Source: a virus (Duplodnaviria; Heunggongvirae; Uroviricota; Caudoviricetes). Taken from it: DNA of 26,162 bases. Shown piece after piece: positions 11,367-21,424 of this stretch. Made by a program: the position numbers and the translations under genes. Positions within the stretch are counted from its first letter, which is position 1. Each line of letters opens with the position of its first letter. The notes below the pieces were generated by a model, which was given only the letters and a program-made list of their open reading frames with translations, ran no database searches and was not told where the DNA came from. The stretch is from the IMG/VR virus record IMGVR_UViG_3300028965_000026; one strand, 5' to 3'.

Positions 11367-12395
11367 ATGGGGTTATTTACCACGCGTCAGTTACTCGGGT
11401 ACACCGAGCAGAAAGTGAAATTTCGTGCGCTGTTTCTGGAGCTGTTCTTTCGTCGCACGATCACTTTCCATACTCAGGAAGTCATGCTGGATAAAATTAC
11501 CGGCAAAACACCGGTTGCGGCGTATGTGTCTCCGGTGGTGTCAGGCAAAGTGCTGCGCAGCCGTGGTGGTGAAACCCGCGTGTTACGTCCCGGTTATGTA
11601 AAACCCAAACACCGCTTTGATTATCAGCAGGCAGTGGAACGTCTTCCGGGGGAAGATCCGGCCCGTCTTAATGACCCGGCCTACCGCCGCCTGCGTATTC
11701 TGACGGACAACCTGAAGCAGGAAGAGCAGGCGATTGTGCAGGTGGAAGAAATGCAGGCGGTCAGTGCCGTTCTGCAGGGTAAGTACACCATGAGCGGGGA
11801 ACAGTTTGAGACGGTGGAAGTGGATTTTGGGCGCTCTGCCACCAATAACATTACTCAGGCTGGCGGCAACAGATGGTCACAGCAGAATGCTGACACCTTT
11901 GATCCAACGCACGATCTGGATGCGTACTGCGATTTTGCCTCCGGGACCATCAATATCGCGATTATGGATGGCACGGTCTGGCGTATGCTGAATGGCTTTA
12001 AGCTTTTCCGTGAAAAACTGGATACCCGTCGTGGTTCAAAATCGGAACTGGAAACCGCGCTGAAAGACCTGGGCTCCGTAGTCTCTTTTAAGGGTTATTA
12101 CGGTGATCTGGCTATTGTGGTGGCGAAAACCGCTTACGTCGATGAAAACGGGGATGAACAGCGTTATCTGCCGGAAGGCACACTGATTCTGGGGAACACT
12201 CAGGCGGAAGGCGTCCGTTGTTATGGTGCCATTCAGGATAATCAGGCACTGAGTGAAGGGATCACCTCTGCGATTCGTTATCCGAAACACTGGTTAGAGG
12301 TGGGGGACCCGGGGTGCGAGTATACCATGACGCAGTCTGCGCCGTTGATGGTGCTGCCGGATCCGGATGCGTTTGTGGTGGTTCAGGTGAAATAA
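11367..12395 (+). CDS. E: Major capsid protein (lambda gpE-like)
   Basis: 342 aa, collinear with lambda E as recalled (YVSPVVSGKVLRSRGG, PGYVKPKH, DPAYRRLRI, QVEEMQAVSAVLQGKYTMSGEQF, LDTRRGSKSELETA, YPKHW, MTQSAPLM). Confidence 0.95.
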   Translation: MGLFTTRQLLGYTEQKVKFRALFLELFFRRTITFHTQEVMLDKITGKTPVAAYVSPVVSGKVLRSRGGETRVLRPGYVKPKHRFDYQQAVERLPGEDPARLNDPAYRRLRILTDNLKQEEQAIVQVEEMQAVSAVLQGKYTMSGEQFETVEVDFGRSATNNITQAGGNRWSQQNADTFDPTHDLDAYCDFASGTINIAIMDGTVWRMLNGFKLFREKLDTRRGSKSELETALKDLGSVVSFKGYYGDLAIVVAKTAYVDENGDEQRYLPEGTLILGNTQAEGVRCYGAIQDNQALSEGITSAIRYPKHWLEVGDPGCEYTMTQSAPLMVLPDPDAFVVVQVK

Positions 12396-12400
12396 GGTCA

Positions 12401-12425
12401 GGCGGGATATTCCCGCCTTTTTCTT
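12401..12425 (+). terminator. Intrinsic terminator after the major capsid gene (GGCGGGA/TCCCGCC stem, T-rich tail)
   Basis: GGCGGGATATTCCCGCC followed by TTTTTCTTT, starting 6 nt after the capsid stop codon. Confidence 0.6.
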
Positions 12426-12445
12426 TAGCGCACGGGAGAGATGTG

Positions 12446-12811
12446 ATGACAAAAGAGCAGATGACTGAACGTTTGCAGGAACTGGCAGTGATTCTGGGGC
12501 GTGAAGCAGATATTTCAGGTTCAAAAGCCGATCTTGAGCAGCGCCTGGCGGAATGGGAAGAGGAGGCCGCCGGATTCGATGGGGAGGAGACAGGGAAGGA
12601 AGAGGTGGGCAACGATGCATCCGGCGACGGAATGCATTCTGAGCGGGGACTCGCCCGGGTGCGTATGCTGAAAACGGCGCATATGCCAGCCTGTGATGCT
12701 GTGACGGGAAAAATGTTGATGTTTGCCCGGGCCTCCAGTGTTGTGCTGGTTAATGAAGCCGCAGTTCCAGCGTTGCTGGCGGACGGTCTGGCAGAAAAAA
12801 TCCGGGAGTGA
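12446..12811 (+). CDS. DNA packaging protein (lambda FI-like)
   Basis: RBS GGGAGAG, ATG at 12446. MTKEQMTERL ... ERGLAR resembles lambda FI (MTKDELIARL ... ERGLAR) and the gene is in the FI position. The six-frame ORF from 12314 is an upstream extension. Confidence 0.7.
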   Translation: MTKEQMTERLQELAVILGREADISGSKADLEQRLAEWEEEAAGFDGEETGKEEVGNDASGDGMHSERGLARVRMLKTAHMPACDAVTGKMLMFARASSVVLVNEAAVPALLADGLAEKIRE

Positions 12812-18934: not shown

Positions 18935-20410
18935 ATGCCCGGATTACATGGTGTTGAAACCATTGAACTGACGACAGGCACGGTTGCCGTGCAGACCATC
19001 TCCACGGCAGTGATTGGCCTGGTGGGGACAGCGCCGGACGCCTCTGGTGGTGTGTGCGCTTCCGGCACAGCCGGCTCCTGGCTGCTGGGAACGGCGCTGG
19101 ATTTCACGGCGAAACAGGAAGGTCGGGCCGGTAATAAGATTTCGGTTGTTGCTGTGGCTGCCACAGAACAAAACGCGCAGACAGTGGCCTCGCTGAAAGG
19201 TACGACCCTGACGATAACACTGGGGACGGACGAACACAGCCAGGTTAACGCCACGGCGGACCGTGTGACTGAAGTGGTGAATGCGCTGGGGGATTCGCCT
19301 GTGACGGCGGCTGTCAGCACCTTGAATGCAGGAGACGCTGAAAATAAAGTGGTGTTGCCGTTCAGCCTGACGTTATCCGGCGGAGAAGATGAGGCGTTCC
19401 CGGTCAATACACCAGTGGTGGTGGCAGGGGCCATTACTCAGGCAGGGAAACTGGGCACAGCCGGAACATTATACCCGGCCCTGCGAGATATTTTTGACCA
19501 GACTGGTGCGCTGGTGATTGTGGTGCGCGCAGAAAGTAAAACAAAGACGAAAGAGGCCGAACAGCGTGCGGCGGTGATTCAGGCCATGGAGGCGCTGACA
19601 GAAAGTAAGGGCGTGACAGGCTATCAACCGCGCGTCCTCATTGCCACGGGGTACAGTGAGGATGATGGCGTGGCAAAGGCGCTGGAAACGTATGCCGTGA
19701 AGCTGCGGGCTGTGGCCTATATTGACTCGCCTTCAATGGCAACGCCGCAGGATGTGGTTCAGCGGCGCGCGTCATTTGGTGGGCGTGTGGAGCTGCTGCG
19801 TCCGCGCGTGTCAGTGACGGATGACAGCGGGCAAACGATATTTCGTCCATATTCGGCTCGTGCTGCCGGGCTGCGTGCCCGTATTGATTACGAAAAAGGG
19901 TGGTGGTGGTCCAAATCAAACCAGGACGTGATGAATATCACCGGTCTGGAGCAGGTGGATACGTTTATTCTCGGGGAGCAGAACTGCACGGCAAACCTGC
20001 TGAACATGGAAAATATCTCCACCATTATTCGCCATGACGGTTTTAAACACTGGGGTAACCGTCTGTGCACATCCCACAGTCAGTGGCGTTTTGAGCCGGT
20101 ACGCCGCACTGCAGATGTGATTGAGGACAGCATCCAGGAGGCCATGCTGCCTTATGTCGATCGCCCGCTTGATCGGGATGTGGCAGACGACATTCTTGGC
20201 AGCATTAATGCCTATATGCGTCAGCTTAAAAATCTGGGCGCGATCCACGGTGGCAGTGCATGGCTGAACGATGAACTGAACACTGCAGAAACCCTGGCGG
20301 CAGGGCAGTTGTATATCGATTATGACTTTGGGCCGAAGTCACCACTGGAGCGCCTGACACTGCGGGCAATGATTAACAATAAACTGGCGCTGGAGGAACT
20401 GACGGTATGA
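18935..20410 (+). CDS. Contractile tail sheath protein (P2 FI-like) with an extra N-proximal domain of about 110 aa
   Basis: 491 aa. N-terminus (HGVETIELTTGTVAVQTISTAVIGLVGTAPDA) and C-terminal two-thirds (WGNRLCTS..., ETLAAGQLYIDYDFGPKSPLERLTLRA) match P2 FI as recalled. About 95 aa longer than P2 FI. Confidence 0.9.
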   Translation: MPGLHGVETIELTTGTVAVQTISTAVIGLVGTAPDASGGVCASGTAGSWLLGTALDFTAKQEGRAGNKISVVAVAATEQNAQTVASLKGTTLTITLGTDEHSQVNATADRVTEVVNALGDSPVTAAVSTLNAGDAENKVVLPFSLTLSGGEDEAFPVNTPVVVAGAITQAGKLGTAGTLYPALRDIFDQTGALVIVVRAESKTKTKEAEQRAAVIQAMEALTESKGVTGYQPRVLIATGYSEDDGVAKALETYAVKLRAVAYIDSPSMATPQDVVQRRASFGGRVELLRPRVSVTDDSGQTIFRPYSARAAGLRARIDYEKGWWWSKSNQDVMNITGLEQVDTFILGEQNCTANLLNMENISTIIRHDGFKHWGNRLCTSHSQWRFEPVRRTADVIEDSIQEAMLPYVDRPLDRDVADDILGSINAYMRQLKNLGAIHGGSAWLNDELNTAETLAAGQLYIDYDFGPKSPLERLTLRAMINNKLALEELTV

Positions 20411-20925
20411 TGACGGGTGAAAAAAAACTGTTGCGCGCATGGGCGTTATTTCTTCCTGGCGGAATCCGCCTTCAGGGGGCACATGAATACACGCCACCTG
20501 CCATTAATATCACGACAGTGGATATCAAAACTGGCGCAATGGATGCACCGGTGGCAGTGGATGACGGCATGGAAGCGCTGACCTGTTCGTTTAAGATTTA
20601 TGGTTATGATGTTGCCATGCTTACGCTGCTGGGATTACAGGCCGGGCTTTATTCGCCGGAGATTGTTGTCCGCCAGGCTTACCAGGTGGGGAATGCGACC
20701 AGCGGGCAGGTGGAAACTCTGCAGGGGATGATCACCAGTATCACGCCGGATGCGCGTCCCGCAACGTCACAGGCAGAGGCTTCGGTGACGGTGGAAATGT
20801 CACTGAGTTATTACCGTCAGGCTGTTGACGGTGTGGAAACCATCTGCATTATTCCGGAGGAATTTGTGCGTCGTATTAACGGCGTTAATGTTCTGGCGGA
20901 TCTGAAAAAAATCATCCGGGTTTAA
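20407..20925 (+). CDS. Tail tube protein (P2 FII-like)
   Basis: 172 aa (same length as P2 FII), directly downstream of the sheath gene with overlapping start and stop. Confidence 0.8.
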   Translation: MMTGEKKLLRAWALFLPGGIRLQGAHEYTPPAINITTVDIKTGAMDAPVAVDDGMEALTCSFKIYGYDVAMLTLLGLQAGLYSPEIVVRQAYQVGNATSGQVETLQGMITSITPDARPATSQAEASVTVEMSLSYYRQAVDGVETICIIPEEFVRRINGVNVLADLKKIIRV

Positions 20926-20946
20926 TCCGGGGATCCTGTCATTCAG

Positions 20947-20970
20947 GCAGCTCAGGCTGCCTTTTCTTTT
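20947..20970 (+). terminator. Terminator-like hairpin after the tube gene (GGCAGC-TCAG-GCTGCC, TTTTCTTTTT tail)
   Basis: 6-bp stem with a tetraloop and a T-rich tail, immediately upstream of the AAGGAG RBS of the next gene. Confidence 0.55.
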
Positions 20971-20984
20971 TAAAGGAGATGCTT

Positions 20985-21287
20985 ATGTCGGAAAAAAACA
21001 GTGTTCCTGCCAGCAGCGTGGAAATTGTGTTATCCGTGCCGTATGTCACCGCATCAGGACAGACGATCACGCACGTCACTATGCGTGCGCCCACTGTCCG
21101 CGATCGTCTGTTGCATCGCCGGAGTAACAAACCGGAAGCAGAGGCTGATCTGGATATGATTGCCGGTCTGTGTGGGATGGACGCGGCAGACATGATGAAC
21201 ATGGAAGCGTGTGATTACCTGGCCCTGGAGCGTCAGTTTAATGTTTTTTTGCTGCCGCCGGTCCGGCGGAAGAAGAAAGCATCCTGA
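20985..21287 (+). CDS. Tail assembly chaperone (P2 gpE-like, tape-measure chaperone)
   Basis: AAGGAG at 20973-20978 with 6-nt spacing to ATG 20985. About 100-aa ORF immediately upstream of the tape measure gene. A T7 run sits near its 3' end. Confidence 0.75.
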   Translation: MSEKNSVPASSVEIVLSVPYVTASGQTITHVTMRAPTVRDRLLHRRSNKPEAEADLDMIAGLCGMDAADMMNMEACDYLALERQFNVFLLPPVRRKKKAS

Positions 21288-21424
21288 CAGCGATACGGCG
21301 TGCCGGTGCCTGGTTCGGGTGGTCTCCCGGAGATGTGATGGCGCTGCCGTATACGGATTTTGTGGCAATGATGCTGGCGGAGTCGGAAGAGAGGAAGCGA
21401 TGTTATGGCAACGGTGGGCGATAA
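20985..21424 (+). CDS. Predicted -1 frameshift fusion product (P2 E+E'-like extended chaperone); slip at 21245-21251
   Basis: Slippery heptamer T TTT TTG in the zero frame at 21245-21251. The -1 frame then stays open for 58 codons (FFAAAGPAEEESILTAIRRAGAWFGWSPGDVMALPYTDFVAMMLAESEERKRCYGNGGR) to TAA at 21422-21424, overlapping the tape measure start. Same layout as P2 E/E' and lambda G/GT. Confidence 0.5.
21244..21251 (+). other. Programmed -1 ribosomal frameshift slippery site (TTTTTTTG)
   Basis: Run of seven T then G near the 3' end of the chaperone gene, with an open -1 frame downstream. Confidence 0.55.

What the first reader, a model, noticed from the sequence alone, without database searches (positions are those of the whole stretch)
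21244..21424. Conserved -1 programmed frameshift in the tape-measure chaperone gene
The heptamer T TTT TTG lies in the zero frame 12 codons before the chaperone stop. Slipping to -1 opens a 58-codon extension ending at TAA 21422-21424, inside the 5' end of the tape measure gene. The six-frame track instead shows a +1-frame ORF (21211-21459), which is probably not the functional frame.
Basis: partly seen in the sequence, partly recalled or inferred. Interest (0 to 1): 0.45.

Follow-up and report, generated by a model that had tools for sequence, protein, structure and literature searches.

The report
Tail chaperone -1 frameshift, P2 type
An E. coli prophage makes a longer version of its tail-assembly chaperone by letting some ribosomes slip back one base at T TTT TTG, the same well-known trick and the same slip sequence as phage P2, so the finding is real but ordinary.

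Summary
The chaperone gene (20985-21287, Pfam Phage_TAC_7) lies between the tail tube gene and the tape measure gene. It carries an in-frame T TTT TTG at 21245-21251. The -1 frame is closed by a TAA one codon upstream of the heptamer. From the heptamer it runs 57 codons to TAA 21422-21424, 20 nt inside the tape measure gene.

The heptamer alone is not unusual in this window. Conservation is what makes it significant:
- T TTT TTG/A and an intact -1 ORF are present in every close relative examined (11 other E. coli records, 33 IMG/VR loci, and six diverged loci at 54-83% identity).
- The wobble T before the heptamer never changes, although its codon's amino acid does.
- Variable sites switch from third positions of the zero frame to third positions of the -1 frame.
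- The +1 ORF is truncated variably and is not coding.

Phage P2 gpE/gpE+E' uses the same heptamer at the same Pfam profile position. This is a new, unannotated member of a known kind. Two corrections apply. The extension is 57 sense codons, not 58. The junction peptide is more likely ...NVFLAAAG... than ...NVFFAAAG.... An invariant GGAG 14 nt upstream may be a Shine-Dalgarno-like stimulator (unproven). No conserved downstream RNA structure was found.

The parts
20985..21287 (+). Zero-frame tail assembly chaperone gene (gpE-like), 100 aa, 11.1 kDa. Its ribosome-binding site AAGGAG lies at 20973-20978.
   Evidence: Translation. Pfam PF10109 Phage_TAC_7, E = 2.1e-12, 47.3 bits against a cutoff of 25. 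RefSeq annotates the same coordinates as 'phage tail assembly protein'. Mass.
21227..21230 (+). GGAG within CTG GAG (Leu-Glu), 14 nt 5' of the heptamer. Candidate internal Shine-Dalgarno-like stimulator (inferred, not shown).
   Evidence: CTGGAG is invariant in all 10 lineages compared and in all 33 close IMG/VR loci, while neighbouring degenerate codons vary at third positions. The published spacing range for SD stimulators of -1 frameshifting is 9-14 nt (PMC5009743).
21239..21241 (+). TAA in the -1 frame that closes that frame one codon upstream of the heptamer. The extension ORF can therefore only be entered at the heptamer.
   Evidence: In the window, and in most but not all relatives, the -1 frame opens at 21242, one codon before the heptamer.
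21245..21251 (+). Slippery heptamer T TTT TTG (X XXY YYZ) in the chaperone frame; site of the -1 shift.
   Evidence: It is conserved as T TTT TTG, or T TTT TTA in L017, in every relative at 54% identity or more. The first T is the wobble base of a codon whose amino acid varies (V/A/D/N), yet it is always T. Phage P2 has the identical heptamer with an annotated -1 frameshift.
21251..21424 (+). -1 frame extension (E'-like): 57 sense codons, AAAGPAEEESILTAIRRAGAWFGWSPGDVMALPYTDFVAMMLAESEERKRCYGNGGR, then TAA at 21422-21424.
   Evidence: Translation. The protein is conserved in relatives, with 14 invariant columns. 21 of 33 variable sites in 21288-21404 lie on -1-frame third positions. hhalign to the E' of BcepMu-like phages gives probability 92% and E = 7.6e-7. 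The first start-type codon in this frame is GTG at 21335, codon 28, after the conserved motif.
20985..21424 (+). Predicted frameshift fusion product (gpE+E'-like), 146 aa, 16.0 kDa: residues 1-89 come from the zero frame (through TTG) and residues 90-146 from the -1 frame.
   Evidence: Built; mass. tblastn with the fusion finds two-piece, frame-switching matches covering residues 16-143 in phages PhiKM and KP12. No fusion of this family is present among 5.8 billion database proteins, only the two halves separately.
21405..23057 (+). Tape measure protein gene (550 aa), the presumed client of the chaperone. Its first 20 nt overlap the end of the extension.
   Evidence: ORF. PHROG tape-measure families match at E down to 5.6e-10, and phrog_3654 at E = 4.9e-215. 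It occupies the gpT position, upstream of gpU, gpX and gpD homologues. Some RefSeq records name it tape measure protein.

Best explanation
This is a programmed -1 ribosomal frameshift of the phage P2 E/E+E' type in the tail assembly chaperone gene of an E. coli prophage.

Most ribosomes read 20985-21287 and release the 100-aa chaperone. A minority pause with tRNA-Phe on UUU (21246-48) in the P site and tRNA-Leu on UUG (21249-51) in the A site. Both tRNAs slip back one base onto UUU UUU, and translation continues from GCU at 21251 in the -1 frame for 57 more codons. The result is a 146-aa fusion that ends 20 nt inside the tape measure gene.

By analogy with lambda gpG/gpGT and P2 gpE/gpE+E', the shared N-terminal domain coats the tape measure protein. 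The rarer C-terminal extension recruits the tail tube subunit. The fixed ratio set by the slip efficiency is what tail assembly needs.

What is shown here: the sequence anatomy, the conservation of the site, and purifying selection on the -1 frame.

What is inferred: that the shift is ribosomal, its efficiency, the roles of the two domains, and a possible boost from the conserved GGAG 14 nt upstream pairing with 16S rRNA.
For: 1. Context. The gene order is sheath, tube, chaperone, tape measure, gpU, gpX, gpD, as in the P2 F operon.

2. Anatomy. The in-frame heptamer is T TTT TTG. The -1 frame is closed by a TAA one codon upstream and then bridges the 117-nt gap to the tape measure gene.

3. 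Site conservation.
- The heptamer and an intact -1 ORF are present in 11 other E. coli records, in six diverged loci from Salmonella, Citrobacter, Trabulsiella and unnamed read-archive assemblies at 54-83% identity, and in 33 of 33 close IMG/VR loci.
- Within 30 codons upstream, the only invariant degenerate positions are CTG-GAG, the wobble T of codon -1, and TTT. Leu is always TTG or TTA, never CTN.

4. Coding phase. Variable sites fall on zero-frame third positions upstream (43 of 54) and on -1-frame third positions after the zero-frame stop (21 of 33, binomial p = 3.5e-4). This includes 10 of 13 sites upstream of the first possible start codon.

5. Homology. The -1 peptide is conserved. 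It aligns with the E' of BcepMu-like phages at probability 92% and, weakly, with the FHWPPSEL motif of P2 E'.

6. Precedent.
- P2 has the same heptamer. Its TTG Leu aligns to the same PF10109 profile position as here (profile 78 of 79; residue 85 in P2, residue 89 here).
- The GenBank record and the literature state a -1 shift at TTTTTTG giving E and E+E' (PMC3091744).
- The frameshift is widely conserved in long-tailed phages (PMC5009743).
Against: - There is no protein-level evidence for this prophage.
- U UUU UUR sites are much less slippery in E. coli than A AAA AAG (PMC5009743).
- No significant or covarying downstream structure was found: z-score +0.75, covariation term +0.34.
- The extension does not reach Pfam PF06528 (P2 E'). 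The window sequence gives no hit, and 4 of 10 relatives give only sub-threshold hits.
- The GGAG is a minimal 4-nt core at the outer edge of the active spacing range, and it is absent in the more distant Citrobacter phage Chris1.
- A T7 run could also support low-level RNA polymerase slippage.
Confidence: 0.9

Rival explanations
1. The same fusion is made by transcriptional slippage. RNA polymerase adds one extra U on the T7 run, and normal translation of that mRNA reads into the -1 frame, giving the junction ...NVFFAAAG....
For: The run is 7 T long in the window and in the E. coli lineage. Transcript slippage on A/T runs is established in bacteria (PMC5009743).
Against: - The cases reviewed involve runs of 9 A or T. 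Here the run is 7 T, and only 6 T in the diverged relatives L014, L017, L018, L019 and L020, which still conserve the site.
- What is conserved is the in-frame X XXY YYZ pattern ending in a purine (TTG/TTA). That pattern is what tRNA re-pairing needs, and polymerase slippage does not need it.
- The P2 literature treats the identical site as a translational frameshift.
Confidence: 0.06
2. No recoding occurs. The -1 ORF is a separate small gene translated from its own start codon, as PGAP calls it in some genomes, or the 117-nt gap is simply non-coding.
For: RefSeq annotates a stand-alone 45-aa hypothetical protein in this frame in some E. coli records.
Against: - That ATG exists only where a Thr-to-Met change created it. 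In the window the codon is ACA.
- The first start-type codon here is GTG at 21335, codon 28, downstream of the invariant RRAGAWFGW motif.
- -1-phase constraint is already visible in 21288-21334, where 10 of 13 variable sites are third positions.
- The -1 frame opens exactly at the heptamer, and the peptide is conserved from its first residues.
Confidence: 0.03
3. The +1-frame ORF at 21211-21459, shown by six-frame translation, is the real second gene.
For: It is an 82-codon open frame with a GTG start in the window.
Against: - In relatives it is truncated at variable points, 9 to 70 codons past the heptamer.
- Variable sites fall on its first codon positions (21 of 33).
- It has no Pfam match.
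Confidence: 0.01

Closest known systems
Phage P2 gpE / gpE+E' (-1 frameshift at TTTTTTG in the FI-FII-E-E'-T-U-D tail operon; Christie et al. 2002, cited in PMC3091744)
   Same: - The heptamer T TTT TTG is identical and in the same register.
- It sits at the same position of the PF10109 chaperone domain: the TTG Leu aligns to profile position 78 of 79 in both.
- The shift direction is -1 in both.
- The extension has the same length (57 aa) and ends a few nucleotides inside the tape measure gene.
- The flanking gene order is the same.
- No downstream structure is found in either (PMC3091744).
   Different: - The proteins are only remotely related: whole-protein hhalign gives E = 0.043, and E' aligns only over the hWxPxE motif at probability 28%.
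- The extension does not reach the Pfam E' family PF06528.
- There are 11 rather than 6 zero-frame codons after the site.
- The host element is a mosaic prophage with lambda-like head genes, a 491-aa sheath protein and a 550-aa tape measure protein.
- This family has an invariant GGAG 14 nt upstream. P2 instead has TAAGGTGG only 4 nt upstream.
Phage lambda gpG / gpGT (-1 frameshift, about 30:1 ratio; Levin 1993 and Xu, Hendrix & Duda 2004, 2013, 2014, as summarised in PMC5009743)
   Same: The logic is the same. A chaperone gene lies just upstream of the tape measure gene. A low-level -1 shift near its 3' end produces a fusion with a shared N terminus. The presumed division of labour is also the same: the N domain binds the tape measure protein and the extension binds the tube subunit.
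   Different: - Lambda is a siphovirus.
- The chaperone belongs to a different protein family.
- The slip site is not T TTT TTG (G GGA AAG, from my own knowledge).
- The functional roles are shown experimentally for lambda and only inferred here.
Phage Mu tail assembly genes (-2 frameshift) and BcepMu-like relatives
   Same: The chaperone family is the same (PF10109, described as 'E, or 41 or 14'). The E'-like peptide is homologous.
   Different: In PhiKM and KP12 the E' frame is +1/-2 relative to the chaperone and there is no T-rich heptamer. The review states that Mu uses -2.
E. coli dnaX (-1 frameshift at A AAA AAG with a 5' Shine-Dalgarno-like element and a 3' stem-loop)
   Same: Both have a heptamer plus an SD-like element within the 9-14 nt range known to stimulate -1 shifts.
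   Different: Here the SD-like core is only GGAG, at 14 nt. No conserved 3' hairpin is present. The efficiency is expected to be a few per cent rather than 50%. This is a resemblance of mechanism only.

Membership tests
Frameshifted tail assembly chaperone pair of long-tailed phages (lambda G/GT paradigm) | Two overlapping ORFs lie between the major tail/tube gene and the tape measure gene. | tested here: met
   The tube gene is 20407-20925, the chaperone 20985-21287, the -1 ORF runs to 21424, and the tape measure gene is 21405-23057.
Frameshifted tail assembly chaperone pair of long-tailed phages (lambda G/GT paradigm) | A slippery sequence lies in the overlap, and the second ORF has no start codon of its own. 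| tested here: met
   T TTT TTG is the only X XXY YYZ heptamer in the 21242-21287 overlap. The -1 frame opens one codon before it. The first start-type codon is at codon 28.
Frameshifted tail assembly chaperone pair of long-tailed phages (lambda G/GT paradigm) | The second frame is under protein-coding selection and is conserved with the site. | tested here: met
   Codon-phase switch, p = 3.5e-4. Conserved extension peptide. Heptamer present in all close relatives.
Frameshifted tail assembly chaperone pair of long-tailed phages (lambda G/GT paradigm) | A fusion protein is actually produced at a fixed low ratio and is required for tail assembly. | not testable with these tools
   This needs western blot or mass spectrometry and genetics.
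P2 gpE / gpE+E' type | The N-terminal chaperone domain belongs to PF10109 (Phage_TAC_7). | tested here: met
   47.3 bits against a cutoff of 25. P2 E+E' scores 47.8 bits against the same model.
P2 gpE / gpE+E' type | A -1 shift at T TTT TTG at the C-terminal boundary of that domain. | tested here: met
   Same heptamer and register. In both proteins the TTG Leu is the last residue aligned to the profile.
P2 gpE / gpE+E' type | The extension belongs to Pfam PF06528 (Phage_P2_GpE, the E' peptide). | tested here: not met
   The window extension gives no hit even at E up to 10. 4 of 10 relatives give sub-threshold hits, best E = 0.0088. hhalign to P2 E' gives probability 28% over 22 columns. It is a remote relative at best, so I file this as working like P2 E/E+E', not as a P2 E' family member.
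P2 gpE / gpE+E' type | Tail operon order: sheath, tube, E/E', T, U, (X), D. | tested here: met
   PF04984/PF17482, PF04985, PF10109, tape measure gene, PF06995, PF05489 and PF05954 (the last below its threshold) occur in this order.
dnaX / IS-type -1 frameshift with a 5' Shine-Dalgarno stimulator | An SD-like sequence lies 9-14 nt 5' of the shift site. | tested here: inconclusive
   GGAG lies 14 nt upstream and is invariant at synonymous positions in all close lineages. It is only a 4-nt core, at the edge of the range, and it is absent in phage Chris1. Its function was not tested.
dnaX / IS-type -1 frameshift with a 5' Shine-Dalgarno stimulator | A stimulatory 3' stem-loop or pseudoknot lies 5-9 nt downstream. 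| tested here: not met
   Fold z-score is +0.75. The consensus fold is -7.7 kcal/mol with no covariation. The 6-bp CCGCCG/CGGCGG hairpin starting 3 nt downstream is specific to the E. coli lineage.
Transcriptional slippage site | A homopolymer run long enough for efficient RNA polymerase slippage (about 9 A or T in bacteria). | tested here: not met
   The run is 7 T here and 6 T in diverged relatives. The criterion comes from PMC5009743.

The most novel reading that the evidence does not exclude
In this prophage lineage the T TTT TTG frameshift may not be unassisted, as reported for P2. It may be tuned by a conserved internal Shine-Dalgarno-like GGAG 14 nt upstream. GAG and the preceding G are invariant at synonymous positions in every lineage, while all neighbouring degenerate codons drift.

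More broadly, this single chaperone family (PF10109) switches its recoding device at the same gene junction among:
- -1 at T TTT TTR,
- -1 at G GGT TTT,
- an imperfect T TTT ATG,
- an RF2-like +1 at CTT TGA,
- a +1/-2 site in BcepMu-like phages.

That would make the family a natural series for asking how frameshift direction and efficiency evolve under a constant protein-ratio requirement.
Probability: 0.25. Interest if true: 0.35.

Novelty: new member of a known kind. Interest (0 to 1): 0.15.

Why it matters
Practically, it is an annotation fix. RefSeq/PGAP and the protein databases hold only the short chaperone and, in some genomes, an orphan 45-aa 'hypothetical protein'. The 146-aa essential tail protein is missing from at least 74 complete E. 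coli genomes.

Biologically, it adds one more lineage to the known rule that long-tailed phages fix the chaperone-to-fusion ratio by recoding. This lineage is a prophage with a lambda-like head and a P2-like tail, and it has no DNA match among 50,697 phage records. It uses exactly the P2 heptamer even though the proteins have diverged almost beyond recognition.

It does not open a new question. The only mildly new angle is the conserved upstream GGAG and the variety of recoding sites among homologues.

Tried and rejected
- DNA search of the phage collection with 20900-21500 found nothing. The same was true for a distant relative, L066.
- The genome-contig scan with the single protein returned only one locus, so diverged relatives were fetched through the look-up of encoding contigs instead.
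- Downstream stimulatory RNA structure is rejected. The fold is no better than shuffles (z = +0.75) and the alignment fold shows no covariation.
- A weak 5-bp hairpin at 21219-21236, flagged by the terminator scan, depends on CTG...CAG codons and was not pursued.
- Pfam, PHROG and PDB sequence searches of the extension alone gave no assignment.
- Christie et al. 2002 (PMC135442) is not held, so P2 experimental details are cited second-hand from PMC3091744 and PMC5009743.
- A second in-frame heptamer, A AAA AAC at 20993, was considered and dropped. It is not conserved (absent in L006, L007 and L014-L020), and its -1 ORF ends after 42 codons inside the gene.

Full report
**Where the window comes from.** The window is 100% identical to part of the E. 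coli CEA224S chromosome, and related copies occur in 74 of 5,426 complete E. coli genomes. RefSeq annotation of the region shows a prophage with lambda-like head genes: terminase, portal, S49 peptidase, decoration protein, major capsid and FI. It also has a P2-like contractile tail module: V, W, J, I, fibre, sheath, tube, 'tail assembly protein', a 550-aa protein, gpU-like, tail protein X and gpD-like. The prophage lies next to tRNA-Ser and hyaA. No record among 50,697 phage genomes matches the region at the DNA level.

**Checking the observation.**
- Bases 21244-21250 are seven T followed by G at 21251.
- The chaperone ORF runs from ATG 20985 to TGA 21285-21287 and encodes 100 aa. AAGGAG lies 6 nt upstream of the ATG.
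- In that frame the run parses as GT|T TTT TTG, so the X XXY YYZ heptamer is 21245-21251. TTG is the 12th codon before the stop.
- From 21251 the -1 frame gives 57 sense codons, AAAGPAEEESILTAIRRAGAWFGWSPGDVMALPYTDFVAMMLAESEERKRCYGNGGR, and then TAA at 21422-21424.
- The next gene starts at ATG 21405. The extension therefore bridges the 117-nt gap between the two annotated genes and ends 20 nt inside the downstream gene.
- The +1 ORF at 21211-21459 is present.

The one adjustment is that 58 codons should be 57 plus the stop.

**Is it more than chance?** The heptamer alone is not. TTTTTTG occurs 6 times in the window against 6.8 expected. The + strand genes contain 31 in-frame X XXY YYZ heptamers in 7,517 codons, and only three of these lead into a -1 ORF that outruns the zero-frame stop. 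The case rests on position and conservation.

**Identity of the genes.**
- The 100-aa protein is a Phage_TAC_7 tail assembly chaperone (PF10109, 47.3 bits against a cutoff of 25).
- Upstream lie a sheath gene (PF04984, PF17482) and a tube gene (PF04985).
- Downstream lie gpU (PF06995), tail protein X (PF05489) and a gpD-like protein.
- The 550-aa protein matches PHROG tape-measure families.

**Comparative evidence.** I compared 11 other E. coli records at 89-99.5% DNA identity and six diverged loci whose chaperones are 54-83% identical. The diverged loci come from Salmonella-, Citrobacter- and Trabulsiella-type sequences plus unnamed read-archive assemblies. I also compared 33 close IMG/VR loci.
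- Every one has T TTT TTG in frame, or T TTT TTA in L017, and an open -1 frame of 54-64 codons reaching the tape measure start.
- In the window and most relatives a stop closes the -1 frame one codon before the heptamer, so there is no other way in.
- A codon table across 10 lineages shows that, within 30 codons upstream, the only invariant degenerate codons are CTG-GAG at -7/-6 and TTT at 0.
- The third base of codon -1 is always T although the amino acid is V, A, D or N. Leu is always TTG or TTA, never CTN. That is the signature of selection on the nucleotide heptamer itself.

**Which frame is coding.**
- Among the E. coli sequences, 43 of 54 variable sites upstream fall on zero-frame third positions.
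- In 21288-21404, 21 of 33 fall on -1-frame third positions (binomial p = 3.5e-4).
- These same sites are first positions of the +1 ORF.
- 10 of the 13 variable sites in 21288-21334 are -1 third positions. That stretch lies upstream of the first start-type codon in that frame (GTG at 21335, codon 28), so independent initiation cannot explain the constraint.
- The +1 ORF is cut at variable points in relatives, from 9 to 70 codons past the heptamer.
- The extension peptide is conserved, with 14 invariant columns and the motif RRAGAWFGWxPxEvMALPyxDF.
- tblastn with the fusion finds frame-switching two-piece matches in phages PhiKM and KP12.
- A profile of the extension aligns with their second-frame peptide at 92% probability.

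**Comparison with P2.** The GenBank P2 record annotates E (91 aa) and E+E' (142 aa) with a -1 frameshift. The sequence there is GGT TTT TTG, the same heptamer in the same register. P2 E+E' matches PF10109 over residues 7-85 (profile 2-78). The window protein matches over residues 14-89 (profile 2-78). In both, the Leu encoded by the heptamer's TTG is the last residue aligned to the profile. Both extensions are 57 aa and both end just inside the tape measure gene.

The literature accessible here states that the P2 -1 shift occurs at TTTTTTG, that it is conserved in P2-like phages, and that no downstream structure is found (PMC3091744). It also states that G-T type frameshifting is widely conserved in long-tailed phages, with -1, -2 or +1 used in different phages, and that the lambda G domain binds the tape measure protein while the T domain binds the tube protein (PMC5009743).

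The proteins themselves are only remotely related. The extension does not reach PF06528, and it aligns to P2 E' only over the FHWPPSEL-like motif. I therefore file this as working like P2 E/E+E' and belonging to the PF10109 chaperone family, but not as a member of the P2 E' Pfam family.

**Mechanism and stimulators.** The standard tandem-slip model puts tRNA-Phe on UUU and tRNA-Leu on UUG, both re-pairing on UUU UUU. This predicts the junction ...NVF-L-AAAG.... On the HIV site U UUU UUA both products are made, 70-80% Leu and 20-30% Phe (PMC5009743), so both peptides should be searched for.

- Downstream, folding is no better than shuffled sequence (z = +0.75) and the alignment fold has no covariation. 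A 6-bp CCGCCG/CGGCGG hairpin starting 3 nt after the heptamer is specific to the E. coli lineage and shrinks to 3-5 bp elsewhere.
- Upstream, GGAG (21227-21230) lies 14 nt from the heptamer. It is invariant in all close lineages, whereas another Glu codon eight codons earlier is mostly GAA.
- SD-like stimulators of -1 shifts act at 9-14 nt, so a modest stimulatory role is plausible but unproven.
- Hafnia phage yong2 has GAGGAGG 10 nt upstream of the equivalent site, but Citrobacter phage Chris1 has none.

**Rivals.**
- Transcriptional slippage is unlikely as the main route. The run is 7 T here and 6 T in diverged relatives, against the 9-nt runs of the known bacterial cases. The conserved feature is the in-frame heptamer ending in a purine.
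- A stand-alone E' gene is excluded by the missing start codon and by -1-phase constraint upstream of any start. PGAP's 45-aa 'hypothetical protein' appears only where a Thr-to-Met change created an ATG.
- The +1 ORF is excluded, as described above.

**Annotation status.** Neither RefSeq nor a 5.8-billion-protein collection contains the fusion. They hold only the 100-aa chaperone and orphan 45-60-aa fragments of the extension.

**Verdict.** It is a new, unannotated member of a thoroughly known kind. Interest is low (0.15). The small residual novelty lies in the conserved upstream GGAG and in the variety of recoding sites among homologues (see the items noticed in passing).

Noticed in passing
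L062-L089 (IMG/VR loci; e.g. L066, around 760-950): These are distant homologues of the chaperone (31-36% identity, PF10109). They carry the E'-like peptide (..LGFSSAEIMSMSFSDMIWWL..) in the +1 frame. In most of them the zero frame ends ...GAG CTT TGA, which is an RF2-like CUU UGA +1 frameshift site. The host is unknown and there is no match in the phage collection.
   Followed up: partly
L002 2750-2890 (Escherichia phage PhiKM) and L003 (Klebsiella phage KP12): In these BcepMu-like phages the homologous E' peptide (LARWFRFQPGEIDAL...) lies in the +1/-2 frame and there is no T-rich heptamer. A GGGG run at L002 2762-2765 is a candidate site. The records annotate only the short protein.
   Followed up: partly
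L025 about 955-965 (Hafnia phage yong2), L026 (Citrobacter phage Chris1), L027 934-940 (Vibrio phage Valp1): These relatives (about 28-44% identity) keep a conserved -1 extension ORF but use different sites. yong2 and Chris1 have GTT TTT ATG, an imperfect heptamer that would need a P-site-only slip. Valp1 has G GGT TTT, one codon upstream. In yong2 and Valp1 the extension is annotated as a separate small hypothetical protein.
   Followed up: partly
window 20945-20971: A terminator-like hairpin (AGGCAGC TCAG GCTGCCT followed by TTTCTTTTTA) lies between the tail tube gene stop (20925) and the chaperone start (20985). It may be a partial terminator that lowers expression of the chaperone, tape measure and downstream genes relative to sheath and tube.
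   Followed up: no
window 20993-20999: A second in-frame slippery heptamer, A AAA AAC, lies at codons 3-5 of the chaperone gene. Its -1 ORF runs 42 codons and stops inside the gene. It is absent in L006, L007 and all diverged relatives, so it is probably chance.
   Followed up: yes
window 12308-12446: An in-frame C CCG GGG lies 27 codons before the end of the major capsid gene (11367-12395). The -1 frame there is open straight into the downstream FI-like packaging gene (annotated start 12446; open from 12314). It could be chance or a capsid-FI overlap worth a look.
   Followed up: no
window 21287-21424 equivalents in L004 559-696 and L005 557-694: PGAP annotation is inconsistent between genomes. 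The extension is called a 45-aa hypothetical protein only where ACA (Thr) has become ATG. The tape measure gene is named 'hypothetical protein' in most records and 'tape measure protein' in a few.
   Followed up: yes
whole window (= NZ_CP166080.1 1101905-1128066): This is a mosaic prophage. Lambda-like lysis and head genes (antiterminator, holin, terminase, portal, S49 peptidase, decoration protein, capsid, FI) are joined to a P2-like baseplate and contractile tail. It is integrated next to tRNA-Ser and hyaA. A 601-nt query from the region found no DNA match among 50,697 phage records.
   Followed up: partly
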